Of a stretch of 64,000 nt of DNA, positions 1,440-16,174 are shown piece after piece. This DNA is from Candidatus Marinacidobacterales bacterium. GTDB lineage: Bacteria; Acidobacteriota; Vicinamibacteria; Marinacidobacterales; SMYC01. A program made the position numbers and the translations under genes. The first letter of the stretch is position 1, and each line of letters opens with the position of its first letter. The notes below the pieces were generated by a model, which had not been told where the DNA came from, did not search any database, and was given only the letters and a program-made list of their open reading frames with translations. The stretch lies in assembly GCA_965237955.1 (NCBI GenBank), contig OZ250169.1:1632001-1696000 (forward strand). Direction: 5' to 3'.

Positions 1440-2293
1440 GAGATTTTCCCGTCGAGCGCGTGGTCACGAATGCCACGACGTTGCGCGTCGAATCACTGTC
1501 GTTGGGCGTGAAGCGGATCGTCTTCGCGCGGCCGGACGTACGCAACGCGTTCGACGAAACCATGATTGCCGAGCTTCGCGACGTACTCGACCACCTCGCC
1601 GGTATCCCTGATCCGCTGCAAATGCGTCTTCTTCTCCTGGAAGGTGAAGGGAAAGTCTTCAGCGCCGGCGCCGATCTCGGTTACATGAAGCGAGTCGCCG
1701 CGGGGAGCGAGGCGGAAAGCTTCGAGGATGCAAAAACACTCGCGCGGATGTTTTACGCGCTCGCGGATTTTCCCGCGCCGGTGATAGCGGTGGTCCAAGG
1801 CGCCGCCATCGGTGGCGGGCTCGGCCTCTCCGTGTGCGCCGACTATGTGCTTGCGGACGAGCAATCGGTGTTCGCTACCTCCGAAGTGTTGCTCGGCATC
1901 GTTCCCGGTGTCATCAGCCCCTACATCATTCGCAAGATTGGCTTGTCTCGCGCGGCGCCGATGATGCTCACCGGTCGCCGAGTCGTCGCCGATGAAGCGA
2001 AAGATATGGGGCTCGTTCAGAGAATTACGCTGCCGTCGGACCGAACGGCCGTGCTTCAGAACGTGGTCCTCGACTTCCTCGCGGCAGGGCCCGAAGCCGC
2101 GCGGCGTACCAAGGCGCTGTTGAAGCAAGCGTCACCGCTTCCTGGTCCCGAGCTCATCGAATTCACCGCGCGCCAAATCGCGGAAGCGCGCTCGTCTCCA
2201 GAAGGCAAGATGGGACTCGAGGCGTTTTTCAGCAAGGCTCCTCCCGCGTGGGCCGCTCGCGTCACACTGCTTCGAAAAAAGCAGGTCACTTGA
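1436..2293 (+). CDS. Enoyl-CoA hydratase family protein (methylglutaconyl-CoA hydratase-like, LiuC/AtuE type)
   Basis: RPDVRNAF, FSAGADL, AIGGGLGL crotonase motifs; GTGA overlap with previous gene. Confidence 0.85.
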   Translation: MRDFPVERVVTNATTLRVESLSLGVKRIVFARPDVRNAFDETMIAELRDVLDHLAGIPDPLQMRLLLLEGEGKVFSAGADLGYMKRVAAGSEAESFEDAKTLARMFYALADFPAPVIAVVQGAAIGGGLGLSVCADYVLADEQSVFATSEVLLGIVPGVISPYIIRKIGLSRAAPMMLTGRRVVADEAKDMGLVQRITLPSDRTAVLQNVVLDFLAAGPEAARRTKALLKQASPLPGPELIEFTARQIAEARSSPEGKMGLEAFFSKAPPAWAARVTLLRKKQVT

Positions 2294-4170
2294 AGAAACT
2301 CGTCATCGCGAATCGAGGGGAGATTGCGCGCCGCATCCTGCGCTCCGCGCGGGAGCGCGGCTACCTCGTCGCGGTGATCTCGACTGCCGAAGACGCGGAC
2401 GCCCTCGTCCGCTCCGAAGCGGACACGGTGCTCGAAGTGTCGAGCTTTCTCGATGCCAAAGCGATCGTGCGTGCTGCCAGGAAGTGGGACGCCGATTTGT
2501 TGCACCCCGGCTACGGGTTCTTGTCGGAGAATACCGATTTCGCTCGACAAGTGGAATCCGCCGGCATGCGGTTCGTCGGCCCGACGCCGGAAGCGATGGA
2601 GCGTCTCGGCAACAAGGAGAGCGCGAAAAAGATCGCGGAAGCGAACCGCGTGCCGACGCTAGCGTCGGTACGGTTCGACGAAATCGACGACATCGCGGAC
2701 AAAGGAATCGAACCGCCGTACTTGGTGAAGGCCGCCGGCGGTGGTGGAGGTCGCGGGATGCGCGTCGTCGAGACCGCCGAAGGGCTACCCGCCGCGCTCG
2801 AGCGGGCGGCGGAAGAAGCCAAGGCCGGCTTCGGTGATCCGACGGTGTTCATCGAACGTTTCCTCGCCGAGCCGCGTCACATCGAGATCCAAGTCGTCGG
2901 CGACGGTAAAGGCGGAGGTGTGGCTCTCGGCGAGCGCGAGTGCTCGATGCAACGGCGCTATCAGAAAGTGATCGAAGAAGCGCCGAGTCCGGTCGTCGAC
3001 GATGTGTTGAGGAAGAAAATGAGCGCGGCGGCGATGAAACTCGTTCGAGCGACGAACTACCGCGGCGCGGGCACGGTGGAGTTCTTGCTCGATATCGATG
3101 GCGGCTTTTACTTTCTCGAGGTGAACACCCGTCTTCAAGTCGAGCATCCGGTGACCGAAGCGGTGTACGACGTCGACCTCGTCGCCGTTCAACTCGCACT
3201 GGCCGAAGGCGAGTGGCCACAGCACCTCGATGCACTCGAGCCCAACCGATGGGCGATCGAAGCCCGGGTGCTCGCGGAAGATCCGCGATCGGACTTCTTG
3301 CCGACGCCGGGCCCGCTCATTCGCTACCGAGAGCCAAGCGGTTTGGGAATTCGTGTCGACTCCGGCGTCGCCGAAGGCAACACCGTACGAGCCGAGTTCG
3401 ACTCGATGATCGCGAAGGTCATCGCCGTCGGTGAGACGCGCTCGGAAGCGATCGAGCGTCTCGGCCCCGCGCTCGCGTCGTTCGTCGTCCATGGTGCGGT
3501 CACGAATTTGCCGTTCTTGCAAGCCGTGGTTCGCCACCCCGAGTTTCGCGACGCGTCGTTTTCGACGGCATGGATTGGCGCCAACATCGACGAGCTCAAC
3601 CGTTCGCTTCTGCCACAGGAACTAGAGGGGCGTCTTGGCACCCCGGGATTTCGCGAGCAGCTTTCGTTCGCGCTTCGCGGCGGCGCTTCCGAGACGCGTG
3701 CTGCGGCTCGCTTTCGTAGTCTAGGAAACGCCACCGCGCGCTTGGGAAGCTCTCGCGAGCACGCCGCGCTCGACGTGGAAGCCGACCCGGTGACGGGCAC
3801 CGTCGTCCTGTCGGGACCCGGCCTCGCCGAACCCATAGAAGGCGTTGCCACCGTGCTCGACCCGACCGCCATGGCGCTCACCGTGCAGGGCGAAACCCTC
3901 CGGCTCGACGATCCCCAGGCCCTCAAGCACCGCCGGGTGAAGCTCGTCGTGAGCGACGGCGAAGTGAGAGCCCCGATGGCGGGCAAGGTGCTCAAGATCC
4001 ACGTCGAGCAAGGCGCGAGCGTCGAGGAGGGTGAACTGCTCATCGTTGTGGAATCGATGAAGATGCAGCTCGAAGTCCACGCCCCCATTGCGGGTCGCGT
4101 GGAGAGCATCGAAGTAGAAGAGGGCCAAATCCTAGATGGACCGGATCTAATGGCCGTCCTGACTCCGTAG
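2290..4170 (+). CDS. Acyl-CoA carboxylase alpha subunit (biotin carboxylase + BCCP; LiuD/AtuF type)
   Basis: IANRGEIA, HPGYGFLSEN, GGGGRGMR, EVNTRLQVEHPVTE, C-terminal ESMKM biotinylation motif; TTG start at 2290 overlaps upstream stop. Confidence 0.9.
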   Translation: MKKLVIANRGEIARRILRSARERGYLVAVISTAEDADALVRSEADTVLEVSSFLDAKAIVRAARKWDADLLHPGYGFLSENTDFARQVESAGMRFVGPTPEAMERLGNKESAKKIAEANRVPTLASVRFDEIDDIADKGIEPPYLVKAAGGGGGRGMRVVETAEGLPAALERAAEEAKAGFGDPTVFIERFLAEPRHIEIQVVGDGKGGGVALGERECSMQRRYQKVIEEAPSPVVDDVLRKKMSAAAMKLVRATNYRGAGTVEFLLDIDGGFYFLEVNTRLQVEHPVTEAVYDVDLVAVQLALAEGEWPQHLDALEPNRWAIEARVLAEDPRSDFLPTPGPLIRYREPSGLGIRVDSGVAEGNTVRAEFDSMIAKVIAVGETRSEAIERLGPALASFVVHGAVTNLPFLQAVVRHPEFRDASFSTAWIGANIDELNRSLLPQELEGRLGTPGFREQLSFALRGGASETRAAARFRSLGNATARLGSSREHAALDVEADPVTGTVVLSGPGLAEPIEGVATVLDPTAMALTVQGETLRLDDPQALKHRRVKLVVSDGEVRAPMAGKVLKIHVEQGASVEEGELLIVVESMKMQLEVHAPIAGRVESIEVEEGQILDGPDLMAVLTP

Positions 4171-4340: not shown

Positions 4341-4622
4341 ATGGGTGATGTCAACCTAGAAGTCTGGGATGCCACCGGTAACAAACGGGTCGAAGTCGAG
4401 GTGCCCGACGACGTTACCGTGGATCGCATCCTGCTCGTTCTCGCGGACAAGCTACACCTTCCCAAGCACAGCCCCGACGGCCAGTTGATGAGCTACAAGT
4501 TTCACCACCGGCGGCTCGGGATCCAGCTTCTCGACGACAAAACGCTCGCCGATCAGCAAGTTGCTGACGGTGACGTAGTTCGAATCCAGCCAGAGATAAC
4601 CGCTGGCGTCGTCTGGGCGTGA
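4341..4622 (+). CDS. Ubiquitin-like beta-grasp protein (EsaB/YukD-like), precursor with C-terminal extension
   Basis: 93 aa; LLDDKTLADQQVADGDVVRI resembles ubiquitin [20 protein letters not shown]; ends PEITAG-VVWA; directly upstream of E1. Confidence 0.85.
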   Translation: MGDVNLEVWDATGNKRVEVEVPDDVTVDRILLVLADKLHLPKHSPDGQLMSYKFHHRRLGIQLLDDKTLADQQVADGDVVRIQPEITAGVVWA

Positions 4623-4626
4623 AGCT

Positions 4627-5776
4627 TTGAAACTCTCGCACAGCGAGCTCGGCATTGACGGCAGGCACGAGAGCGACGACAGCGCGGGCCGCTATCACCG
4701 ACAAGAGCTCATTACCTGGTGGGATCAGAGTCGAGTGCGCTCCGCACGCGTTCTCGTCATCGGCGCCGGCGCGCTCGGAAACGAAATCCTGAAGATCCTG
4801 TCGTTGACCGGCATCGGCGAAGTGCTCGTCTATGACATGGACGTCATCGAGCAAAGCAACTTGTCCCGCGGTGTCTTGTTCCGCGATGAAGACAAAGGCT
4901 CGGCCAAAGCGACGGTCGCGGTCGAGCGCATGCGCGAGCTCAACCCCGACGTGAGCGCCCACGCGCGCGTGGAGAACTTGAACCACAAGGCCGGCCTGGG
5001 AGTGTTTCTGTGGGCCGACGTCGTGATCTGTGGACTCGACAACCGCGAAGCACGCATCTTTGCCAACAGTGCGTGCGCAGCCACGGGTCGGACCTGGGTC
5101 GACGGCGCCATCGAAGGGTTGGCTGGCATCGCCCGCGTTTTCAATCCGGCGGAAGGCGCGTGCTACGAATGCACCATGAACGAGACCGACCGGAAACTCG
5201 TGGCCGAGCGGCGTTCGTGCGCGATGCTCGCGCGGGCCATCGTCGAGTCCGGACACGTGCCGACGACCGCGGTAGCAGCATCCCTCGTCGCGGCTCTCGA
5301 AGTTCAAGAAGCGATCAAGATTCTTCATGGTCAACCCGCCATCGTCGGCGAAGGCACCACTCGGCCTTCGAAGCGACGCGATAACTTTCGAAGCGCTTGT
5401 CGAGCGAGCGGAAAAAGAGCTCGGCAATGGTGCGGTTTTGGAGCTCAGCCGCGACGTCATCGTGTCGCTCGAATGCGCCGCGTGCGGCACGCGTGAGCCG
5501 AGGTACGTTGTTCTCGGCGAGCTCGGCGAGAAAGATGCCGCGTGCCCGAAGTGCAGTGCCCACCGTATCGTCGAGTTCGCCTCGTCGGTTTCGCGCGACG
5601 GCGTCGTCGATTTGAGCCGAACGCCGCAACAAGCAGGTTTGCCGCCGTTCGACATCATCGTCGCCCGTCAAGGCCTGGACGATCAGCGCGCGTGGCTCTT
5701 CGACGGAGACGCAACCTCGGTGCTTGGACCTCTCACGGTTCCCGCGGAGATGGGAGGTGTTCTTGAACGGTCTTGA
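4627..5776 (+). CDS. ThiF/E1-like ubiquitin-activating enzyme with C-terminal Zn-ribbon domain; frame break near 5355
   Basis: GAGALG, DMDVIEQSNLSR, GLDN, CYEC, RRSC (candidate catalytic Cys) in 4627-5355; continues in another frame (ORF 5327-5776) with CAAC...CPKC and GLPPFDII. Confidence 0.85.
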
Positions 5777-7007
5777 CACGCGTGCCATCGACACCAAGGA
5801 GCTTTCGAAGGAGACGTTTCCTCACGTCCGGCACGGTTTTCGTATTTTTATCTCGGAAGACGCGTTCGATCGTGCGACCGAGCGCGGGCAGGCGGACCTG
5901 ACGCGCGAAGTGGGCGGCGTTCTCGTCGGCCGTATTCATCAGGACAAGAACGGTCCGTTCGTTAAAGTCGATGCGACCATCGACGCGCTCTACGCTGAAG
6001 AAAAGGAAACGGAGCTCACGTTCACGCAAAAGACGTGGGACTACATTCACAAAGAGCTGGAATCCAAACACAAGGGCAAGAAGATCGTCGGCTGGTACCA
6101 CACGCATCCAGGCTTCGGCATCTTCTTGTCGGATCGGGATCTCTTTATTCATCAAAGCTTCTTCAACCTTCCCTACCAAATCGCGCTCGTCTATGACCCG
6201 AAGAGCCACGAGCACGGTGTGTTCGCGTGGCGCGACAACGAGCCCGCGCGGTGTCGACAGTACTGGGTCGGGCACGAAGAAAACCTTTGGGACGGTCCCC
6301 GCATGGCGGTGGAGCCCATGGCTGCCGTCGTAAGCCCGGAGAAAGAGGACATGAGCAACAAACGGGTCGAGCTCGCGCCTTCGGAGCGCGAATGGGATTG
6401 GGCGACGTTCGCGATCACCGCGGTGGCGCTTGTGCTGATTGGTGGTCTCGCGGGTTTCTGGTTCGCGCAGTACCGGATGCGCGACGCCATTCGTGAGGCG
6501 CAAATGCGCATCGATCGGGATCGAGCGGCGGCGGCGGAAGTATTGCTTCGAGGGCTGAACGTGGAGCTCCTGAGCTTCGTGCGCGAGGCTGCTTCCGGCG
6601 GTTCCGGGCTCCGCCGGGATTTCGATGAAGGGCTCACCGCCATCGATCTCGGTGTCGTACAGCTTTCGAGGGGAGGTGACACGAAAGACGCACTCGTTCC
6701 GTTGATCGCGGGCCGGCGCAAGCTCAAAGAGCTTCGCGACGCGCATTTCGCAGCCGATCGCTCGTTGAGGCTCTTGCAGAGTCTCGGCGAGAAGACCTCT
6801 GCGATCCCGAGGGAAGTCACCCGGATGCTTTCCGATCAACGCGCCGCGCTCGGTCAGCTCTACGCGGAGGTCGCGGAGGATGTTGCCCAAGCGGGGGACA
6901 ACCGGCGTGCCCGGCGTCTTCTCCGACTCGCGGCCACACTGGATCCCGGAAACGCGCGCCGCTACGAGGACAAGCGGGCCGGATTGAAAGAGGAGGGATC
7001 ACCCTGA
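5763..7007 (+). CDS. JAB/MPN+ (JAMM) metallo-isopeptidase with transmembrane helix and helical C-terminal domain
   Basis: EVGGVLVG and GWYHTHPGFGIFLSDRD (HxH-x7-S-x2-D); hydrophobic FAITAVALVLIGGLAGFWF; GGAGG before TTG at 5763. Confidence 0.9.
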   Translation: MNGLDTRAIDTKELSKETFPHVRHGFRIFISEDAFDRATERGQADLTREVGGVLVGRIHQDKNGPFVKVDATIDALYAEEKETELTFTQKTWDYIHKELESKHKGKKIVGWYHTHPGFGIFLSDRDLFIHQSFFNLPYQIALVYDPKSHEHGVFAWRDNEPARCRQYWVGHEENLWDGPRMAVEPMAAVVSPEKEDMSNKRVELAPSEREWDWATFAITAVALVLIGGLAGFWFAQYRMRDAIREAQMRIDRDRAAAAEVLLRGLNVELLSFVREAASGGSGLRRDFDEGLTAIDLGVVQLSRGGDTKDALVPLIAGRRKLKELRDAHFAADRSLRLLQSLGEKTSAIPREVTRMLSDQRAALGQLYAEVAEDVAQAGDNRRARRLLRLAATLDPGNARRYEDKRAGLKEEGSP

Positions 7008-8383
7008 GCGAACGAGTCGTCATCCAAAGGGACGAGCTCTACGACAAGAGCGTCGACGAAGCGCTGAGAAAAGAGCGTCAGCTTCGCACCCACGTCGTTT
7101 CCCAAGAGCCTCCCGATCTGTCTCCGGTACGAAGGCTCATGATGTCGAGCCTGTTCTACCTTCCCGTCGCGGGACTTCTGGCGAGCTTCACCGCCTGGGT
7201 TTTGATCGAGCCGCACTTCGCCGACTTTTCCCTAATAGGTGGGGAAGTGCTTCTCGTGAACTCCGAGCCCTTCGAGTTCGGGGACGGCTCGGTCGATCCC
7301 GAGCTCGGCGACGCCATCAACCTCACAATAGGGGACAACAAAGTCATCGTGTTCCCCAATCTCATCTCGATGGAGCCGGGAGCTGACTCTCAGCCGCCCT
7401 TCAACGACATTTCCGAGGTCCAACCCGGAACGTATCTCGAAGCGGTGGGCGAAGTCTGGGCTGAGAACGAGATGGTCGCGGGCGCGCTTCGTCCGGCGAC
7501 GGCAACGCACGCTGGCGACACGGGTGATCAAATCGGGAGCGGCGACAACTTCGCGGGCTTGCTCCTGTTCCCCTTGACCGCGGTCTTCATCGCCGTCGCC
7601 ATGCTCGTCGCGGAAGGGGTATCGAGTCGCAACTGGGTTCGGATGATCGATCGCGTGATGATCGGGGTCTTGTTGACGGCGATCTTCTCGTTCCTCTCGT
7701 TCATCCCCGCTGCGATCATGATGACCATTGCTCAGTCCGTCATGTCGATGGACGCGTCTGCCGACTGGACCACGGTCCAGGACATGCCGGCGGTGACGTT
7801 CGTCTTATACGCCGCTTGTCGCAGCGGCGCGTGGGCCTTCATCGGCGCCGGCCTCGGGCTGGGGATGAACCTTGCCCGCAGCACCAAGAGCCAGCTACGA
7901 AACTCGGTCATCGGCGGCGCTCTCGGCGGCGTGTTCTTCGACCCCATCGATCGATTTTTTCAAGAACCGTCGGCGTTCGCGGGCGCCGAGCTGTCCCGCC
8001 TCGTCGGTTTGGTCGCGGTAGGACTGTCCGTGGGCTTTTTCGTGGCTCTCGTCGATCAGCTCGCACGTGAAGCGTGGCTGCGCGTGCGGACCGGTCCGCT
8101 CGCGGGAAAATCGTTCGTTCTCTACAAGACGCCAACGACGGTTGGAAGCTCACCGTCGGCCGACGTTTATTTGTTCAAAGATGCGGCCATTGATCCCGAT
8201 CACATCGCGATCCATCGCGTCGGCAACCGATACGAGATCGAGGACCTCGGCACCCGCTCCGGCACCCAAGTCGGCGGGCAAGCCATCAGACGACAACGCC
8301 TCAACTCCGGCGATCAAATTACGTTGGGCGCGACCGTGCTCGAGTTCGAAGAGCGCGCCAAACAATCGAGCAGCGCGGAGTGA
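7004..8383 (+). CDS. Polytopic membrane protein with C-terminal FHA domain
   Basis: Several TM segments; C-terminal TTVGSSP...IDPDHIAI...IEDLGTRSGTQVGG...LNSGDQITLG FHA pattern; frame open from CTG 7004 (GAGGAGG upstream), first ATG at 7139. Confidence 0.8.
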   Translation: MSERVVIQRDELYDKSVDEALRKERQLRTHVVSQEPPDLSPVRRLMMSSLFYLPVAGLLASFTAWVLIEPHFADFSLIGGEVLLVNSEPFEFGDGSVDPELGDAINLTIGDNKVIVFPNLISMEPGADSQPPFNDISEVQPGTYLEAVGEVWAENEMVAGALRPATATHAGDTGDQIGSGDNFAGLLLFPLTAVFIAVAMLVAEGVSSRNWVRMIDRVMIGVLLTAIFSFLSFIPAAIMMTIAQSVMSMDASADWTTVQDMPAVTFVLYAACRSGAWAFIGAGLGLGMNLARSTKSQLRNSVIGGALGGVFFDPIDRFFQEPSAFAGAELSRLVGLVAVGLSVGFFVALVDQLAREAWLRVRTGPLAGKSFVLYKTPTTVGSSPSADVYLFKDAAIDPDHIAIHRVGNRYEIEDLGTRSGTQVGGQAIRRQRLNSGDQITLGATVLEFEERAKQSSSAE

Positions 8384-8399: not shown

Positions 8400-8969
8400 A
8401 TGGGCCAGACGGTAAACCGGCTCAAAACCAATCGAGTCCTCGAAGGCAAGCCGTGCGGGTGGTGCTCTAACACGCTGACGTTCGGAGAGGACGCAGCTCT
8501 TTGCGAAGGCTGCACCACCGGCCATCACGCAGCGTGTTGGGACGGAAAGGGCGGGTGTGCCTCGGCCGGCTGTGTGAACGCACCGCTGAAACAGCTCGCG
8601 CCGCAGCCGGAGCGGCCCGTGGGGCCGCCACCGGGCAAGATGAATTGTCCGAACTGCCAGCTCCAAATACCGGCGAGCTCCGTTCGGTGCGAGTACTGCA
8701 ACGTGGGCGTCACCTCCCCGGATGGAGTGTACCGGGGACCCACGCAGACGGCCCCGGGCGCGGTTGCATCGCTCGTGTTCGGGATCCTGGCGTTTTTCCT
8801 TTGCGGCATCATCTTTGGTCTCGTCGCCATCCAGAAGGCGGACGAAGCCAAGACCGCGATCGCCGCCGATCCGAGTCTTACCGGCGGCGGCATCGCGACA
8901 ACGGGGAAGGTGCTCGGGATCATTGCCCTCGTCGTTTGGGGTCTGGGCTTGATCATGCAGGCCATGTGA
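8400..8969 (+). CDS. Prokaryotic RING finger + double Zn-ribbon + DUF4190-like membrane anchor (candidate E3)
   Basis: C-x2-C-x12-C-x2-C-x4-H-x2-CW-x5-C-x4-C; CPNC...CEYC; ASLVFGILAFFLCGIIFGLVAI; GAGGAGG RBS before ATG 8400. Confidence 0.85.
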   Translation: MGQTVNRLKTNRVLEGKPCGWCSNTLTFGEDAALCEGCTTGHHAACWDGKGGCASAGCVNAPLKQLAPQPERPVGPPPGKMNCPNCQLQIPASSVRCEYCNVGVTSPDGVYRGPTQTAPGAVASLVFGILAFFLCGIIFGLVAIQKADEAKTAIAADPSLTGGGIATTGKVLGIIALVVWGLGLIMQAM

Positions 8970-8976
8970 GGATGTG

Positions 8977-9387
8977 ATGGGAGCTCGTCTGAAAGATTTG
9001 GGTCTGGGCGTCGTTGCCGCCGGCTGGCTCGTCGCTGCGACCTGGATGACGCCCGCGGGGGACGTCCTCGCCGCGCCATCGGGCGAGACGCTACCGACCA
9101 TGTGCTGGATCCGAGCCACCACCGGTCACGCGTGCCCGACGTGCGGTATGAGTCGAAGCTTCGTCGCGTTTTTTCATGGCGACGTAGGCCACGCGTTCCA
9201 GTTTCATCCGGTGGGCCCGGTCCTCGCGGCGGCTACGGTGATGGTTCTCGTTTCGGTTCTCGGGCTCGCGATCTCGGGGCGCAGGCCGCTTTGGGGTCGC
9301 CCGGTTTTCGCGCGCGCGCTGACGCTCTCGGCGGCGGGCGCTCTTTTCGCTGGCGTGGTACGCATGTTGGTTGGAGGGCTCGGATGA
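8977..9387 (+). CDS. DUF2752 family membrane protein
   Basis: C-x5-TG-x2-CPTCGMSRSF...HP signature flanked by TM helices. Confidence 0.8.
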   Translation: MGARLKDLGLGVVAAGWLVAATWMTPAGDVLAAPSGETLPTMCWIRATTGHACPTCGMSRSFVAFFHGDVGHAFQFHPVGPVLAAATVMVLVSVLGLAISGRRPLWGRPVFARALTLSAAGALFAGVVRMLVGGLG

Positions 9388-9923
9388 ATCGCTGCTCGGT
9401 TTGTCACACGTTGATTCAAGAAGGTGTGCCGACGCGTACCTGTCCGGAATGCCATCAGCAGTATCATGAGAGCTGTTGGGAAGGCATTGGGGGGTGCGCG
9501 ACGTACGGCTGCGAGAAAGTCGCGCCCGCGGAAAAACCAGAACCGGTGGCGGTGCAAGGCACGGGGTGGGGCGACAGTAAATCGTGTCCGGCGTGCGAGG
9601 TTGAGTTGAGCTCGAGCTTTCTCGTGTGCAGCTGCGGAGCCCAGTTCCCGTACGCGGACTCGATGACGAAGGATGAATACTACCACTGGCTCGCGAAGCA
9701 GGAGCAGATCAATTCCGCGCGTCGTTCTCTCGTCATTCTGTTCGTAGTCTGTTTGGCCGGCGTGCCCGCTCCGGTGATCGGGCCGATCGCGGGATGGTAT
9801 GCCTTTACCAAGAGAAAACAGCTGGAGGGCGCCGGTGGCACGTATCTCGCCATGGGATACGGTACCGCGGCGCTAGGAGCGACCTACGCGTTGATGATGC
9901 TCGCGCTCGCGTTGGGATTCTAG
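9384..9923 (+). CDS. Second prokaryotic RING finger + Zn-ribbon + 2-TM protein (candidate E3)
   Basis: CSVC-x12-CPEC-x4-HESCW-x5-CATYGC; CPAC...CSCG; two C-terminal hydrophobic helices; ATGA overlap with DUF2752 gene. Confidence 0.85.
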   Translation: MNRCSVCHTLIQEGVPTRTCPECHQQYHESCWEGIGGCATYGCEKVAPAEKPEPVAVQGTGWGDSKSCPACEVELSSSFLVCSCGAQFPYADSMTKDEYYHWLAKQEQINSARRSLVILFVVCLAGVPAPVIGPIAGWYAFTKRKQLEGAGGTYLAMGYGTAALGATYALMMLALALGF

Positions 9924-9941: not shown

Positions 9942-11228
9942 GTGACGATGAGCACCGTAGGGGGGACGATTTGTCCTGAGTGCAGCGCTCCGGTCAAGGT
10001 GCGTCTCATCGGTGGTGAGGCGTGTCCGCAGTGTGAATCGTCGAAAGCCTGGGAGCGCTACGGCGGGGACGGCCACAAGCTCGTCATCCACAAGCGGGAT
10101 ATTGCAGAGGCCGAAGCCAAGATCACCGGACAAGCCGACGGTTCGGCGGCGACGGCGCGGTACTGGTTGCCGGGTCTTCTTGCTCTCGGCGTCGGCATCG
10201 GAGCGAGCTTTTTCGTGCGCGAGCTCTTCAGCGCTCGTCCGCTCGGTCCCTTGGAGCCGTTGGTCGCGGAGCTGCAGCGAACGTCCCTCATGCGCGCAGG
10301 GCTCGGCGTTGTGGCTCTCGCGGTAGGCATTGCATCGACGCTCGCGCAGAAAAAGGGATCTCTGTTCAGGAACGCGACTCTCCTCATCGTGAACTTGTCC
10401 GCGGTGCTCGTGGGAGCGGTCACGATGCTCGTCGGTGCATTTCAATGGGCCAACTGGGGCGGTGCGAGCGGCGTCGGCTGGGCTCACATGGCGATGCCGC
10501 CGCTCGCGGGAGCTCTGTCAACGACGCAGGCGATCACCGCCCAAGAGAAATCCATCATGTCGGCGACGACGGTTCTGGTCGCACCGGATGGGAACGGAGA
10601 CGCGCGCGGAATGTCGTTGGGATCGGGCGCTGTCATCCGCAGCGACAGCGGAGCTGCATTTGTGGTGACCTGCTCTCACGTCGCCATGCCGTATGCTTCG
10701 GTTGCGGCTTTCCGGGATCCTAAGGATGCCCATCCCGTGTGGGTCTATTTTTCGGATGGGCGCCATGCCGAGGGACATGTCGTGTGGACCGCCGAGCCGC
10801 CCCTCGACGTCGCGGTCGTGCGCGTCGACATCGAAGACCCTCCCAATCCGGTACCGGTGCGCGCGAGCGCGGATGCGGCCGAGCAAGGGTTCGACGTGTC
10901 GTTCGTGCCCAACCCGTTCCGCTCGGGATGGACGGTGCACCGCGGCAAAGTGCTGAAGCGGGAGTCGCACCGGACGCCTGCCGGAGAATACAGTTTGATC
11001 TATACCAGTTTGCCGGTGCAGCCGGGGGACAGTGGTACCGGGCTCTTCGATAGTTTGGGTCGCCTCGTCGGGCTCAACACGTGGACGCAGATCGAAGAAG
11101 GGGGACCGAGGGGCATCAGCTTGCCGTCGAACACGATGGAGCGCATCGTCGAGATGATGGAGATGACGGAGATGATGGACGCCAACGAGCTCGTCAACTT
11201 GGACGGGCTGGATGGGGCAGATCCATGA
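9942..11228 (+). CDS. Zn-ribbon + 3 TM + trypsin-like (S1) serine protease
   Basis: N-terminal CPEC...CPQC; three hydrophobic segments; triad motifs TCSHV, DVAVV, GDSG. Confidence 0.85.
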   Translation: MTMSTVGGTICPECSAPVKVRLIGGEACPQCESSKAWERYGGDGHKLVIHKRDIAEAEAKITGQADGSAATARYWLPGLLALGVGIGASFFVRELFSARPLGPLEPLVAELQRTSLMRAGLGVVALAVGIASTLAQKKGSLFRNATLLIVNLSAVLVGAVTMLVGAFQWANWGGASGVGWAHMAMPPLAGALSTTQAITAQEKSIMSATTVLVAPDGNGDARGMSLGSGAVIRSDSGAAFVVTCSHVAMPYASVAAFRDPKDAHPVWVYFSDGRHAEGHVVWTAEPPLDVAVVRVDIEDPPNPVPVRASADAAEQGFDVSFVPNPFRSGWTVHRGKVLKRESHRTPAGEYSLIYTSLPVQPGDSGTGLFDSLGRLVGLNTWTQIEEGGPRGISLPSNTMERIVEMMEMTEMMDANELVNLDGLDGADP

Positions 11229-12220
11229 GCAACTTTCGACTACGTCGTCTACAGTCGGACTACGAGGCGGTGAAACGTCTCGTTCACTTGCATCCGAAGA
11301 TCGAGGTCGAGGGGGTGAGCGGAAACCCACCCGACCGCTATCGGTTGGTGATGCGGGTTCGCTCGCTGCGCGAGCAGGGCGAGCGCGTCGATCTCGCCAG
11401 AGAACATCGCCTCGAGATCACGCTTCCCAAGGGCTACCCGCGAGATGCACCGGTGTGTCGCATGCTCACGCCGGTCTTTCATCCCAACATCGCGCCGCAT
11501 ACGGTTTGCATCGGGGATCACTGGAGCGCTGCCGAGCGCCTCGACGAGATGATCCAACGCGTCGGAGAAGTGCTGGGGTTTCAGAGCTACAACGTGCAGA
11601 GCCCGCTGAACGGCCAGGCGGCGCGCTGGGTCGAAGAGCACATGCATCGGCTGCCGATCGAAAAAGAAGAGTTTTTCATCGATCTTTCGAGCGCCGTGCA
11701 CCGTGACGTCAAGACCGCGAGTCAAGATCAATGCTCCAACTGCGGCGCCAAGGACAAACCGCTCGAGCCGTGCGGGACGGGGCACGTCCTGTGCGGCGAT
11801 TGCGTCGCGCACTGCAAAGTATGTGGGTCGGTTCTTTGCCTCGCCTGTGGATCGACCAGTTGCAAGGCATGTGCTCAGGCCGCACTCGCGGCTACGGCGC
11901 CGACGGCGGCGAGAGTGCAGGCGCCCGTCAACCCCACTCGGCCAACCGGGCCCACCGGGCCGGGCGCGGCCACAGGCGCCACCGCGACCGCGACTTCGAC
12001 CGCGACGTCTGTCTCTGCTGTTCCCGCAAAAGCCGCGCCCGAGGCCGCCGCGGCGCAGCATCAAGGTTGGGTCTGCAGCAATTGTGGCACGCGAGATACC
12101 AAGGCCGTGCAGTGTCGCCAAAAACACATCCTGTGCTCGAATTGCATGATTCGCTGTCAGACCTGTGGGCGCGGGTTGTGCATGATGTGCGGCCAGTACC
12201 CTTGCCAGGCGTGCGCCTGA
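11225..12220 (+). CDS. UBC-fold E2 conjugating enzyme fused to two Cys-rich RING-like repeats
   Basis: RLRRLQSDY, YPRDAP, FHPNI-x5-C(95)IG, WS, SPLN; two 47-aa C11H repeats separated by an Ala/Thr/Pro linker; ATGA overlap with protease gene. Confidence 0.9.
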   Translation: MSNFRLRRLQSDYEAVKRLVHLHPKIEVEGVSGNPPDRYRLVMRVRSLREQGERVDLAREHRLEITLPKGYPRDAPVCRMLTPVFHPNIAPHTVCIGDHWSAAERLDEMIQRVGEVLGFQSYNVQSPLNGQAARWVEEHMHRLPIEKEEFFIDLSSAVHRDVKTASQDQCSNCGAKDKPLEPCGTGHVLCGDCVAHCKVCGSVLCLACGSTSCKACAQAALAATAPTAARVQAPVNPTRPTGPTGPGAATGATATATSTATSVSAVPAKAAPEAAAAQHQGWVCSNCGTRDTKAVQCRQKHILCSNCMIRCQTCGRGLCMMCGQYPCQACA

Positions 12221-12818: not shown

Positions 12819-13865
12819 TCACTCTTCCAGCTTGCCGGAGAGGCGAGAGAAGTAGGATCGCAGCTTCGCAGGATCGCTCGTCGTGGCAAGCACGGCGACG
12901 AGCACGAGGCGGGCTTTCAAGCCGTCCAGATCCTCGCCCGAGATCACGCCGGAGCGCTTCGCATCGTCACCGACCAGGACGCGGCCGCCACCGGCGCGCG
13001 CCGTGAACACGACTGTGACGTCCTGGTTGCGCGCGTCCCGAACCGCGTCCATGACTTTCGGCGGAACATTCCCGCGCCCGAACACCTCGAGCACGATACC
13101 TCGCTGACCGGAGGCGACCGCGGCGCGGACTTGGCTTCCGTCGCTTCCTGTGAAGAGTCGAATGAGGGTGACCCGCGGCTCGACGGCATCGACGTCGAGC
13201 GTGAGTCGACGCGCCGGCTTGCGAGCCAGGTAGATGTTCTCGCCGTCGAAATACCCGAGCGGGCCGAATCCCGGTGACGCGAAAGCGTTGGTTGCGACGG
13301 TGTGGGTCTTCCGCACGTCGCGCGCCGTATGGATCTCGTCGTTCAACGTGACGAGAACCCCGAGACCTCTTGCTCCCTCGGTCGCGGCCAGGCGAACTGC
13401 GTTCAGGAGATTGCGAGGAGCGTCGGTGTCGCTTCGACGCGGCGGTCGCATCGCCGCCACGAACACCACGGGGCGATCGTCCTCCAACAAAAGGTCGAGG
13501 AGGAAAGCGGTTTCCTCGAGCGAATCGGTTCCATGGGTGACGACGATTCCCGAGAGCTCCGGCTCATCGTGGAAGAGCTCGTTGACGCGCTTTGCGATGC
13601 CGAATTGCAGCTCCGGCGTCATGCGCGAGCTTCCGATCGCCATGTAGTCCTCCACGCTCAGCTCGGCGACGCTCGCCAGCGCTGGGTTCAGCTCTTTGAG
13701 CTCGGCCGCGGACAGCGAGCCGGCGCGGCCACCGGCGATCGTCCCGCCGGTAGCGATCAAGCGCACTTTCGGCTCGTCGGAAGCGGAGACACTGGAAGCG
13801 CACAGGATGAGTGCGCACAAGATCCGCTGATAGTTCCAGTTACCCACGCGTGCGTGTTTTAGCAC
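12819..13865 (-). CDS. L-asparaginase (type II-like, probable signal peptide)
   Basis: ATGGTIAG and HGTDSLEET active-site motifs; hydrophobic N-terminus; exact start uncertain. Confidence 0.9.
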   Translation of the reverse strand: MLKHARVGNWNYQRILCALILCASSVSASDEPKVRLIATGGTIAGGRAGSLSAAELKELNPALASVAELSVEDYMAIGSSRMTPELQFGIAKRVNELFHDEPELSGIVVTHGTDSLEETAFLLDLLLEDDRPVVFVAAMRPPRRSDTDAPRNLLNAVRLAATEGARGLGVLVTLNDEIHTARDVRKTHTVATNAFASPGFGPLGYFDGENIYLARKPARRLTLDVDAVEPRVTLIRLFTGSDGSQVRAAVASGQRGIVLEVFGRGNVPPKVMDAVRDARNQDVTVVFTARAGGGRVLVGDDAKRSGVISGEDLDGLKARLVLVAVLATTSDPAKLRSYFSRLSGKLEE

Positions 13866-14047
13866 ACGTGGGGGAAAAGGGGACGGTCTAGATCACGGAC
13901 AGCCGCGCTACGAGAGCCTATAATAGAACGCTAAACCTCGACCCGAAAAATCAATTGAGCGCGTAAGCGATGTCTTATTCTGCCAACGGCGGATCGAATC
14001 CCCCCAACCCGCAGTCGTTGGCCACACCGATCGCGGGGGGGAAGCGT

Positions 14048-14653
14048 ATGAAGACCGTACTGGACCTCATCGGGGAGTTCGCTGTTCTTCATGATGCCAA
14101 GGTCATGTGGGGCGGAAAGTTACCCAACGAAGCGGAGCAGCGTTGGGAGGAGCTCAAAGACTTCTACGACCTTCTCATGTCCAAAAGCGGTGTCGGTCCG
14201 CGACCGGTCACGCGGCAATTCTCCGCGAAGGATATCGAGGAAAAAGTCACGTCGCGCGAGCGGCTGCGGGTTCCGGTCGAGATGGACATGATCTTCCGCG
14301 CAGGCGAGGAGTTCCACGCGGCCAAAGGCGTCAACGTGAGCCGTGGCGGTCTCTACCTTTCGTCACCCCTGATTCTTCCTGTCTCAACGACGGTAACGGT
14401 TTACCTCGCGAGCTCCGACGTCACCCATGAATCGCTCCTCGAAGCACCCGGCGAGGTCGTGTGGGCAACCGAAGAAGGCCGCGATCAGGCTTCGCTGCCT
14501 CCGGGCATGGGCATCAGCTTCACGACGCAAGAAGGACACCTCGAGCGCCATCTCGACGCGATGGTCATTAACTCGCTGGTGCGCCATCTCTCGGGCGTGG
14601 ATGCCAATTGCTTCGCCCCGGAGTTCCTCTTGAAAGAAAGCGTCGAGCTGTAA
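14048..14653 (+). CDS. PilZ domain (c-di-GMP-binding) protein
   Basis: RERLR (RxxxR) and NVSRGG (D/NxSxxG), GEVVW, PGMGISF; alternative start at 13970. Confidence 0.75.
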   Translation: MKTVLDLIGEFAVLHDAKVMWGGKLPNEAEQRWEELKDFYDLLMSKSGVGPRPVTRQFSAKDIEEKVTSRERLRVPVEMDMIFRAGEEFHAAKGVNVSRGGLYLSSPLILPVSTTVTVYLASSDVTHESLLEAPGEVVWATEEGRDQASLPPGMGISFTTQEGHLERHLDAMVINSLVRHLSGVDANCFAPEFLLKESVEL

Positions 14654-14790: not shown

Positions 14791-16174
14791 GGGTCTACGC
14801 GGGTTCGTGTGGGTTGAAAACGGCATTTCTGGGTAATGGCGGAAGGAATGCCGCCACGATCTTCAGCTTGAGATATCCCTCGTCACGATAGCCGTAGGCG
14901 CGTCGTTGCAGAACACGGATTTTGTTGTTGACCCCTTCAACCAGTCCGAGACTGACTTTGTTCTCAGGATGACAGTAGGAGGCGATACCATCCCAATGGG
15001 ACTCAATCATTCCGGCGAACTTCTGGTAGGGATGCAGGCGCTGCCATTTGAGGCTGTCTTTCCAACGTGTGAAAAAGGCGCGAGCCCCGCGTTCGGTGCG
15101 GTAATCCCAGAGTTGCCCGAAGGCCTCCTTCAAAACATAGGCGGTGTTCAGGCGCCGGTTGGCCTGGAGCAACTTCTTGAGTGCGCGGCGACCGTCCAGG
15201 CTCAGGTTCTCCCGCCGGGAAAGCAACGTGTAACGCTGCCCCTTGATATACGACCGGTCCTCGCCGCTGAGGCGTTTGTACTCACGGCGCCGGACCTCAT
15301 CGAGAGCCTTTGACAGGTGACGCATGATATGAAACTTGTCGAAGATGATCCGCGCATTGGGTGCGTTGTTAATCACCGAGTTCCGGAAGGGCTTCCACAT
15401 ATCCATGGCGGCCAGCTTGATACGGGCGCTTTTCTTCCCGCCCAGCGCCTTGAAGAACAAATCGATGTCGGTTTCTTTGCGACCCTCACCGCCCACCCAG
15501 ATGGGACGCGCCCGCTCCAGGTCGCTGACAATGACACGATAGTTATGTCCCTTGCGGATGGAGATCTCATCAATACCGATGGCCCGAGGCGCCGGCAGCC
15601 CCGCCCGCTCGACTTGCTCTTGCATGTAGAGCTTATCCAGGTCCTTCACCGTAGTGTGGTGCAGACGTTCCATCTCGGCCACCGCCTTGTTCGGCATATC
15701 CCGGCACAGCTTGCCCACATGCGTCGCAAAGCGCTGGGTGTAGCGCGGGTTGTTCGCCAGCCAGTCCAAGTGTTCTACATGCACACCACCGCACCCACGA
15801 CAGTTGACGCGCCAACGCTCGTATTCCAGATAGATCCGCCAGCCTGCCAACGACAGGTCGCGGACCCGGCACACTTGCTTGTCATAGCGCCCCCGGCACC
15901 GATGCCCACAGTACGAGCACACGGCTGTTTTTTTCGCCTCTTGAGCTGGATGACGCGGGCGTATCGGTCACCGAATACACCGTTCAATCGGGCGCCAGCC
16001 ACGAAACCTGGTAGCGCAAAAAGCGAGCGGATCGACTGGGGATTTTTCACTCGGTTAGCCTATCCGAAAAACGGATCACTTCTCAGCACCTGATGAAGTG
16101 CTGAATACCTTTTCCACACAATGAGTTACACTATTTCTCCGTCAGCATTCGCCCACAGATTTCCGCGTAGACCC
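14791..16174 (-). mobile_element. Complete ISL3-family insertion sequence (1384 bp)
   Basis: Terminal inverted repeats GGGTCTACGCGG-N5-TGTGGG at both ends; 8-bp direct repeat ATATTTCT at 14783-14790 and 16175-16182. Confidence 0.95.
14795..16050 (-). CDS. ISL3 transposase, two ORFs joined by a -1 shift at an A7 run (15928-15934)
   Basis: Zn finger CSYC...CRGC, IGIDE, AMDMW, FDKFH, EGVNNKI, RRAYGYR; upstream ORF MKNPQS...KRRKK joins to KTAVCSYC after a -1 shift. Confidence 0.9.

What the first reader, a model, noticed from the sequence alone, without database searches (positions are those of the whole stretch)
11732..12217. E2 fused to two copies of a 47-aa C11H zinc module
Seen: CSNCGAKDKPLEPCGTGHVLCGDCVAHCKVCGSVLCLACGSTSCKAC and CSNCGTRDTKAVQCRQKHILCSNCMIRCQTCGRGLCMMCGQYPCQAC share exact spacing C-x2-C-x9-C-x3-H-x2-C-x2-C-x3-C-x2-C-x4-C-x2-C-x4-C-x2-C and are joined by a long Ala/Thr/Pro linker. 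The first six ligands follow RING-HC spacing. Inference: 12 ligands could bind three Zn per repeat, giving a possible E2-E3 fusion or substrate-recruiting arm that I cannot assign to a named family.
Basis: partly seen in the sequence, partly recalled or inferred. Interest (0 to 1): 0.75.

Follow-up and report, generated by a model that had tools for sequence, protein, structure and literature searches.

The report
Zinc-rod arm on bacterial ubiquitin E2
A bacterial ubiquitin-conjugating enzyme (E2), the last gene of a conserved ubiquitin-like tagging operon, carries two copies of an unnamed 47-residue cysteine-rich module that is predicted to bind three zinc ions and likely works as a docking arm rather than as a built-in ligase.

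Summary
A 331-aa eukaryote-type E2 (11225-12220; His86-Pro-Asn, Cys95) ends in two identically spaced C11H modules joined by a 67-aa Ala/Thr/Pro linker. It closes a conserved Ubl-E1-JAB-FHA-RING-RING-protease-E2 operon of the kind predicted computationally in 2011.

The module passes no Pfam or NCBIfam cut-off (best: Siva E=0.009, Sina_RING E=0.087). It is predicted to be three overlapped treble clefs (ligand pairs 1+3, 2+5, 4+6), and it is the shortest closed form of an extensible zinc rod on related E2s.

The E2-E3 fusion idea is weak. The module has Asn where RINGs carry the E2-contacting hydrophobe (236 of 236), its model lacks the RING helix, and the operon already encodes membrane Prok-RING_1 proteins. 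Among 80 relatives the tail is one module, two, an open rod, another zinc ribbon or absent, which fits a swappable docking arm. The long linker is lineage-specific (median 6 aa).

This genome's E1 has a 92-nt frameshifting deletion, so the pathway is probably off here; near-identical strains lack the deletion. The scan noted this operon and similar tails before on other genomes. Verdict: new variant of a known kind, moderate interest.

The parts
11225..12220 (+). E2 gene, 331 aa: UBC domain plus two zinc modules; its ATG overlaps the stop codon of the protease gene
11225..11659 (+). UBC (E2) domain, residues 1-145, with His86-Pro87-Asn88 and catalytic-position Cys95 (codon 11507-11509)
   Evidence: Pfam UQ_con 37.2 bits; invariant in 115 rows; structural Z about 11 to eukaryotic E2s over residues 1-145
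11732..11872 (+). Zinc module 1, residues 170-216, C11H; predicted three overlapped treble clefs
11873..12073 (+). 67-aa Ala/Thr/Pro-rich linker, predicted largely disordered; length varies in frame among close strains
   Evidence: pLDDT under 50 at residues 238-279; 9-nt insertion and 12-nt deletion in other runs
12074..12214 (+). Zinc module 2, residues 284-330, C11H; 21 of 47 residues identical to module 1 (9 of 35 non-ligand positions)
4341..4622 (+). Ubiquitin-like tag (YukD-like beta-grasp) ending in Ile-Thr-Ala-Gly plus a 4-residue extension
   Evidence: Pfam YukD E=2e-11; the same Gly with variable or no extension in related loci
4627..5776 (+). E1 (ThiF family) broken by a 92-nt frameshifting deletion near 5355
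5724..7007 (+). JAB/MPN peptidase with a hydrophobic segment (start codon uncertain)
   Evidence: Pfam JAB E=2.2e-11
7139..8383 (+). Multi-pass membrane protein with a C-terminal FHA domain (start codon uncertain)
   Evidence: Pfam FHA E=1.4e-12; hydrophobic segments read from the sequence
8400..8969 (+). Prok-RING_1 + zinc ribbon + DUF4190 membrane protein; candidate E3
   Evidence: Pfam Prok-RING_1 34.4 bits, above the cut-off of 29.1; RING at 8454-8576
8974..9387 (+). DUF2752 membrane protein
9384..9923 (+). Second Prok-RING_1-like membrane protein; candidate E3
   Evidence: Pfam Prok-RING_1 E=1.9e-6, 28.2 bits, just under the cut-off; RING at 9393-9515
9942..11228 (+). Membrane-anchored trypsin-like serine protease with N-terminal cysteine pairs
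   Evidence: Pfam Trypsin_2 E=5.5e-18

Best explanation
The protein is a eukaryote-type E2 of a conserved bacterial ubiquitin-like operon, and its two C-terminal modules are predicted three-zinc treble-clef chains that likely act as a non-catalytic docking arm, holding the soluble E2 at its membrane-bound partners or at substrates, while the operon's separate membrane RING proteins likely supply the E3 step. Inferred pathway: JAB trims the tag to its conserved glycine, E1 activates it, E2 Cys95 takes it as a thioester, and a membrane Prok-RING_1 protein positions the charged E2 for transfer to a target lysine. Inferred zinc sites per module, numbered for module 1: C170/C173 with C190/C193, C183/H187 with C205/C208, and C197/C200 with C213/C216. 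Two copies would add avidity, and the long linker would add reach. Shown: sequence, conservation, gene order and interchangeability of the tail. Inferred: zinc binding, the pairing and the docking role. The binding partner is not identified.
For: (1) Operon: Ubl, E1, JAB, FHA, RING and protease homologues lie beside the E2 in 51, 52, 53, 61, 71-72 and 73 of 80 loci, many of them cut short by contig ends. (2) Dedicated E3 candidates: 159 Prok-RING-like domains in 71 of 80 loci, 151 of them with Trp after ligand 6, and 109 with Ile, Trp, Val or Phe two places after the first Cys. (3) The tail is a swappable slot. Of 80 E2s, 36 have capped modules (18 two, 16 one, 2 cut by contig ends), 25 an open rod, 17 an unrelated zinc ribbon, 1 no tail and 1 is cut off (L012 moved by hand from 'array' to one capped module). 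The tail-less L037 lies inside the 100/100 clade of capped forms and keeps the operon. One- and two-copy states each need at least 5 changes on well-supported branches. (4) The same slot also carries DUF4190 membrane anchors (4 proteins), FHA plus kinase (1) and WD40 (1) among the 75 of 108 representatives scanned. At least 18 of 108 carriers of the module belong to an unrelated non-E2 protein class. (5) Pairing: pairs 1+3 align with GATA fingers. Model residues 1-46 overlay FYVE-type binuclear fingers (rmsd 2.3-2.7 A over 45 residues, Z 3.4-4.2) and residues 11-55 an AN1 finger (Z 3.0). L028 has lost pairs 4 and 6 together but kept pair 5. The module's 3-4-4 spacing opens 24 of 25 longer rods, 24 of which have an even number of pairs. 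(6) The pairing follows the treble-clef rule of knuckle plus helix start (PMC4506424, passages).
Against: No partner was identified and no binding was shown. No model coordinates were available, so the zinc geometry was not measured. All fold matches are weak (best Z 4.3, none at 5 or more among 48,161 chains; no Foldseek hit at E of 0.001 or better). Within this E2 clade the module is kept in 36 of 37 genome loci, which also fits an essential cis role. Among the loci examined it occurs only fused to the E2 (61 of 61 ORFs). The nearest Pfam lead, Siva-1, has been reported both as an adaptor (PMC4068132, passages) and as an E3 for ARF (PMC6171514, passages). The L028 argument rests on one locus.
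Confidence: 0.58

Rival explanations
1. The module is an atypical RING-like E3 fused in cis: it folds back on, or binds in trans to, the UBC domain and activates E2~Ubl, so the protein is an E2-E3 chimera.
For: The first six ligands fit RING-HC spacing, and pair 5 lies 11 residues after pair 3, as a RING's last pair can (sequence). The module profile aligns weakly with RINGs such as TRIM21 (E about 0.01, profile positions 3-45) and Sina_RING (5 of 71 members at E of 0.1 or better). The top Foldseek rows are a SIAH1 RING fragment for the module (E=0.19) and a UbcH5B-RING fusion for the whole protein (rmsd 8.7 A). Siva-1 has reported E3 activity.
Against: Asn stands at the first E2-contact position in 236 of 236 modules; Leu (77%) and Gly (89%) stand where RINGs have Pro and often Arg (contact positions from PMC3166285, passages). 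There is no helix between pairs 3 and 5 in the model. RING rows in the fold search have lower Z (2.5-3.1) than FYVE-type rows, or rmsd over 5 A. Separate Prok-RING_1 genes are present in 71 of 80 loci. The tail is replaced or lost in 18 of 80.
Confidence: 0.2
2. The module binds the ubiquitin-like tag or the E1, or it regulates the E2 (autoinhibition, zinc or redox sensing), rather than targeting it.
For: A conserved acidic-aromatic motif (P144, E149, F150, F151, D153, L154) joins the UBC domain to module 1 and could hold it near the E2. Treble-clef fingers include ubiquitin-binding modules (PMC4506424). Twelve ligands per module make it oxidation-sensitive (own knowledge).
Against: Copy number and rod length vary from 0 to more than 20 pairs without any change in the tag or in Cys95. 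Conserved non-ligand positions are few and look structural. The module also occurs in non-E2 proteins.
Confidence: 0.14
3. The module binds membrane lipid (FYVE-like) or nucleic acid (GATA-like) and localises the E2 that way.
For: The best folds are FYVE-type, the best sequence matches in the PDB are GATA fingers (E=1.3e-5), and the operon is membrane-centred.
Against: No basic residue is conserved above 40% in the module, so the basic phosphoinositide patch of FYVE domains (recalled, not from a call) is missing. The GATA match covers only profile positions 2-31, and GATA's DNA-binding basic tail (recalled) is absent.
Confidence: 0.08

Closest known systems
Bacterial ubiquitin-like operons with RING E3s (Prok-RING_1, PF14446), attributed to Burroughs, Iyer and Aravind 2011 (PMC5938088; not held, seen only as cited in PMC4197634, PMC10557695 and PMC3417536)
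   Same: Ubl, E1, E2, JAB and RING genes in one operon; related loci come largely from Acidobacteria and Planctomycetes, two of the phyla named for these operons; patchy among relatives.
   Different: The E2 here carries a tandem three-zinc module. Whether the 2011 paper describes this tail could not be checked.
Siva-1 C-terminal cysteine-rich region (Pfam PF05458)
   Same: The whole of module 1 (residues 163-217) aligns to profile positions 105-160. Siva's C-terminus is described as B-box-like plus zinc-finger-like, and Siva acts in ubiquitination as an adaptor or an E3.
   Different: 16.1 bits against a cut-off of 26.2; the best relative reaches 21.2 bits. None of the 75 profile hits scanned reached the Siva cut-off. 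Homology is not established.
FYVE-type and B-box/AN1 cross-brace treble-clef fingers (PDB 1wfk, 5x6t, 2cjs, 2csz, 5ij4)
   Same: Overlapping treble clefs with cross-braced ligands; Z 3.0-4.3.
   Different: These bind two zinc ions. The module has six ligand pairs, is extensible into rods, and lacks FYVE's basic patch (recalled).
RING-HC E3s (SIAH/Sina, TRIM21)
   Same: Ligand spacing over the first six positions; weak profile matches.
   Different: An extra Cys pair sits where the RING helix would be, and the E2-contact residues are not kept.
Bil and Bub bacterial ubiquitination systems (PMC10557695, PMC11601596; passages)
   Same: Ubl, E1, E2 and JAB, with conjugation shown experimentally in those systems.
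   Different: Bil operons encode no E3, and Bub E2s use serine. This operon has RING genes and a cysteine E2, and its E2 matches no PADLOC model.

Membership tests
UBC / E2 (PF00179) | Profile score above the curated cut-off and UBC fold | tested here: met
   37.2 bits vs 27; Z about 11 over residues 1-145
UBC / E2 (PF00179) | HPN motif and catalytic cysteine | tested here: met
   H86, P87, N88, C95 invariant in 115 rows; Cys in all 78 loci of 80 where the motif was matched
UBC / E2 (PF00179) | Forms a thioester with the tag | not testable with these tools
   needs biochemistry
RING-HC E3 | Eight cross-braced ligands at RING spacing | tested here: inconclusive
   Fits only if pair 4 is skipped or a 3-residue gap is accepted; RING folds match at Z 2.5-3.1
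RING-HC E3 | Pfam RING profile above cut-off | tested here: not met
   Sina_RING 13.4 bits vs 29.3 for module 1; best E among 71 members 0.01
RING-HC E3 | Central helix after ligand 6 | tested here: not met
   The predicted model has strands and no helix there; a prediction, not a solved structure
RING-HC E3 | E2-contact residues: N-loop hydrophobe, C-loop Pro and following polar residue (often Arg) | tested here: not met
   Asn in 236 of 236; Leu 77% and Gly 89% at pair 5; Pro 30% and Gly 60% if pair 4 is taken; criteria from PMC3166285
RING-HC E3 | Stimulates transfer from a charged E2 | not testable with these tools
   needs a discharge assay
Siva (PF05458) | Profile score above cut-off | tested here: not met
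   16.1 bits vs 26.2; best relative 21.2; 4 of 71 modules at E of 0.1 or better
Siva (PF05458) | Same ligand order and three-dimensional zinc pairing | not tested
   No Siva sequence or structure was returned by any search
FYVE domain | Fold | tested here: inconclusive
   Best Z 4.3, rmsd 3.8 A over 52 residues
FYVE domain | Conserved basic phosphoinositide-binding patch (feature recalled) | tested here: not met
   No Arg or Lys position above 40%
Prok-RING_1 ubiquitin-like operon | Ubl, E1, E2, JAB and membrane RING genes together | tested here: met
   the E1 of this genome is broken
Bil / Bub systems | No E3 gene (Bil); serine E2 (Bub) | tested here: not met
   Two RING genes and a cysteine E2; definitions

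The most novel reading that the evidence does not exclude
The module is a bacterial homologue of the eukaryotic Siva zinc domain and works as a non-RING, three-zinc E3 or E2-activating adaptor fused in cis. That would make a natural bacterial E2-E3 chimera and trace a metazoan ubiquitination regulator to a bacterial operon.
Probability: 0.15. Interest if true: 0.78.

Novelty: new variant of a known kind. Interest (0 to 1): 0.42.

Why it matters
Of the bacterial ubiquitination-like systems in the papers read here (CBASS, Bil, Bub), none is described as using an E3. This operon type has a canonical cysteine E2 and RING genes, and my searches of the held library found no experimental test of it. 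How its soluble E2 finds membrane-bound ligases or substrates is open, and the tail is the obvious handle. Natural variants with no, one, two or many zinc units give a ready deletion series. The module also defines an unannotated, extensible treble-clef chain with a weak link to Siva, for which no call returned a solved structure. On its own, an accessory zinc arm on a predicted system is of moderate interest.

Tried and rejected
Complex prediction of the UBC domain with module 1 plus three zinc ions gave 'no answer' (score 0.00) and is not used for or against binding.

The ESM Atlas search with the module alone gave one hit at 0.76, uninformative. The whole protein gave UQ_con clusters only, plus weak rows. 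NCBIfam has no family for the protein or either module, and PADLOC none for the E2. Foldseek of the module found nothing at E of 0.001 or better; a missing match does not show a new fold.

A stand-alone module gene was sought in six frames of the 80 loci and not found. A search of proteins shorter than the E2 was not run, so split forms elsewhere are not excluded. The genome holds only these two modules.

The gene neighbourhood of the non-E2 carriers could not be obtained: the alignment was too variable and the single-protein scan found nothing. A resemblance to YqhG-like proteins is recalled and unsupported by Pfam.

No RNA holder was listed, so expression is unknown. Burroughs 2011 is not held.

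My first tail classifier mislabelled four loci and was redone, where L012 was still mislabelled and was corrected by hand. P0153 (Sina RING), P0193 (GATA) and P0208 (double zinc ribbon) among the 108 profile hits were taken as cross-matches, not modules; they stay in the denominator of 108. An assembly artefact was rejected for the repeats.

Full report
OBSERVATION. The ORF 11225-12220 (+) encodes 331 aa; its ATG overlaps the stop of the upstream protease gene. Residues 170-216 and 284-330 are the two quoted modules, each C-x2-C-x9-C-x3-H-x2-C-x2-C-x3-C-x2-C-x4-C-x2-C-x4-C-x2-C, with 21 of 47 residues identical and a 67-aa linker between them. The pattern occurs twice in the window's six frames and in 0 of 200,000 shuffles of the C-terminal half. 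Contigs of runs X5 and X7 cover the gene in one piece. The genome is one 8.13 Mb contig with no further copy of the module. The nearest relatives are labelled Acidobacteriota.

THE E2. Pfam UQ_con scores above its cut-off. H86-P87-N88 and C95 are invariant in 115 aligned sequences. The AlphaFold model (pLDDT 82) matches eukaryotic E2s at Z about 11 over residues 1-145. The family is large: 1490 proteins at E of 0.001 or better among 5941 candidates. Of the 120 listed, 106 have two modules by my pattern and 14 have one; some of the 14 are fragments or have a variant second copy that the pattern missed. The median linker is 6 aa and only 10 of 106 reach 43 aa. The long linker has pLDDT under 50 over residues 238-279 and shows in-frame indels among close strains, so it is a spacer.

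THE OPERON. Upstream lie a YukD-like tag, a ThiF-family E1, a JAB peptidase, an FHA membrane protein, two Prok-RING_1 membrane proteins, DUF2752 and a membrane trypsin-like protease. The genome scan found 257 relatives and kept 80. Tag, E1, JAB, FHA, RING and protease homologues flank the E2 in 51, 52, 53, 61, 71-72 and 73 of them, nearly always in the same order; many loci are cut by contig ends. The tag's C-terminal glycine is conserved, with variable or no extension. A review states that related operons occur sporadically in Actinobacteria, Planctomycetes and Acidobacteria and cites Burroughs 2011 (PMC4197634, passages); that paper itself is not held. Only 1 of 30 related genomes (G006) had a gene-length DNA match to the E1; six others had matches under 40 nt. 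A DNA search would miss diverged copies.

WHAT THE MODULE IS. No Pfam family reaches its cut-off. Siva gives E=0.009 for the protein. Among 71 aligned modules, Sina_RING hits 5 and Siva 4 at E of 0.1 or better. All twelve ligands are 94-100% conserved in 236 modules. The module model is confident (pLDDT 87, pTM 0.64) and consists of short strands with one C-terminal helix. Its best folds are FYVE-type fingers (Z 3.2-4.3); RING, AN1, LIM, GATA and PHD fingers follow at Z 2.3-3.4, and none of 48,161 chains reaches Z 5. These are weak matches that place it among treble clefs, no closer.

ZINC PAIRING (inferred; no coordinates were available). Three lines give the likely pairing. GATA fingers align to pairs 1 and 3. 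Binuclear fingers overlay residues 1-46, ending just after pair 5, and an AN1 finger overlays residues 11-55. L028 has lost pairs 4 and 6 but kept pair 5. With the knuckle-plus-helix-start rule (PMC4506424, passages) this gives pairs 1+3, 2+5 and 4+6, that is three zinc ions. In 25 more distant E2s the same head runs on as a rod of 12 to 28 counted pairs with mostly alternating 3- and 4-residue gaps; 24 of 25 begin with the module's 3-4-4 spacing and 24 of 25 have an even number of pairs (in two loci the count runs into a trailing zinc ribbon). The 47-aa unit is therefore the shortest closed form of an extensible rod.

E3 OR ARM? RING E3s contact E2 through an N-loop hydrophobe, the central helix and a C-loop Pro followed by a polar residue (PMC3166285, passages). 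The module has Asn at the first position in 236 of 236 copies, Leu and Gly at the last two, and no central helix in the model. The operon's own RINGs look like better ligases: 159 domains in 71 of 80 loci, 151 with the helix Trp. The tail behaves as a swappable slot: 18 loci have two capped modules, 16 one, 2 are cut off, 25 have a rod, 17 an unrelated zinc ribbon, 1 has none and 1 ends at the contig edge (L012 corrected by hand). On the E2 tree all capped forms fall in one 100/100 clade that also holds the tail-less L037, and the one- and two-copy labels each need at least 5 changes; the tree is midpoint-rooted, so the direction from rod to module is not shown. In 52 equal-length pairs the two copies share a median 34% of non-ligand residues and up to 83% (26% here), which points to repeated duplication or homogenisation. 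A profile search of 1.84 billion representatives gave 108 hits: 58 with a detectable E2 domain, 18 of one unrelated non-E2 class, and 32 others, many of them fragments and three clear cross-matches. Among the 75 scanned with Pfam, four E2s continue into a DUF4190 membrane anchor, one into FHA plus kinase and one into WD40 repeats. Such company suggests localisation and recruitment.

AGAINST THIS READING. The module is kept in 36 of 37 genome loci of its clade and is always fused to the E2 in the loci examined (61 of 61). The weak RING and Siva resemblances are real. Siva-1 is reported both as an adaptor for RAD18 (PMC4068132, passages) and as an E3 for ARF (PMC6171514, passages). No partner was identified. 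I put the docking arm at 0.58, cis E3 at 0.20, tag/E1 binding or regulation at 0.14, and lipid or nucleic-acid binding at 0.08.

STATE OF THIS COPY. The window's E1 lacks 31 codons' worth of sequence present in relatives and changes frame there. Contigs of X5 and X7 carry 92 extra letters at 5355-5356, X2 holds both forms, and X1 (which may be the source sample) matches the window exactly. The deletion is thus most likely a real allele, and the pathway is probably inactive in this strain.

NOVELTY. The operon type is a known prediction; the tail has no family name. Searches of the held library for bacterial ubiquitination with RING/JAB terms, treble clef/planctomycete terms, DUF4190/FHA terms, 'Prok-RING' and 2023-onward E3/planctomycete terms listed no experimental study of this operon and no description of the tail, judged from listings and abstract starts. 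Subscription papers are largely missing from the library. Of the Bil and Bub papers I read passages only (PMC11601596; PMC11601603; PMC10557695), likewise PMC3417536 and PMC3935273. No supplements were read; they could list such operons. Earlier notes of this scan on other genomes describe the same operon and call a similar tail a generic zinc rod; they agree with my reading but are not independent support. Verdict: new variant of a known kind, interest 0.42.

Noticed in passing
window 5355-5356 (E1 gene 4627-5776): A 92-nt frameshifting deletion breaks the E1. Runs X5 and X7 carry the long form, X2 both forms, X1 the deleted form. L050 also has a short E1 frame.
   Followed up: yes
window 12073, run X7: One contig (depth 22.5) has a one-letter insertion at the start of module 2, which would shift the frame and remove that module in that strain.
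   Followed up: no
proteins P0183, P0191, P0197, P0207, P0209-P0211, P0214, P0215, P0217-P0222, P0225, P0227, P0228: An unannotated non-E2 protein class (most 250-780 aa) ends in the same head plus rod. Pfam gave no family except two incidental hits, and NCBIfam none for the three tested. Its gene neighbourhood was not obtained.
   Followed up: partly
proteins P0167, P0169, P0195, P0199, P0190, P0206: E2-rod proteins fused onward to DUF4190, to FHA plus Ser/Thr kinase, or to WD40 repeats.
   Followed up: no
window 14795-15922 (-): A 375-aa ORF that reads like an ISL3-family transposase (judged by eye, not scanned), about 2.6 kb downstream of the operon.
   Followed up: no
window 12819-13865 (-) and 13970-14653 (+): An asparaginase-family gene and a PilZ-domain gene follow the operon; a biotin carboxylase gene (2248-4170) precedes it.
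   Followed up: no
L025, L028, L029, L040: These loci have extra copies of the RING and/or FHA membrane genes within the operon; L065 has tag and E1 on the opposite strand next to the E2.
   Followed up: no
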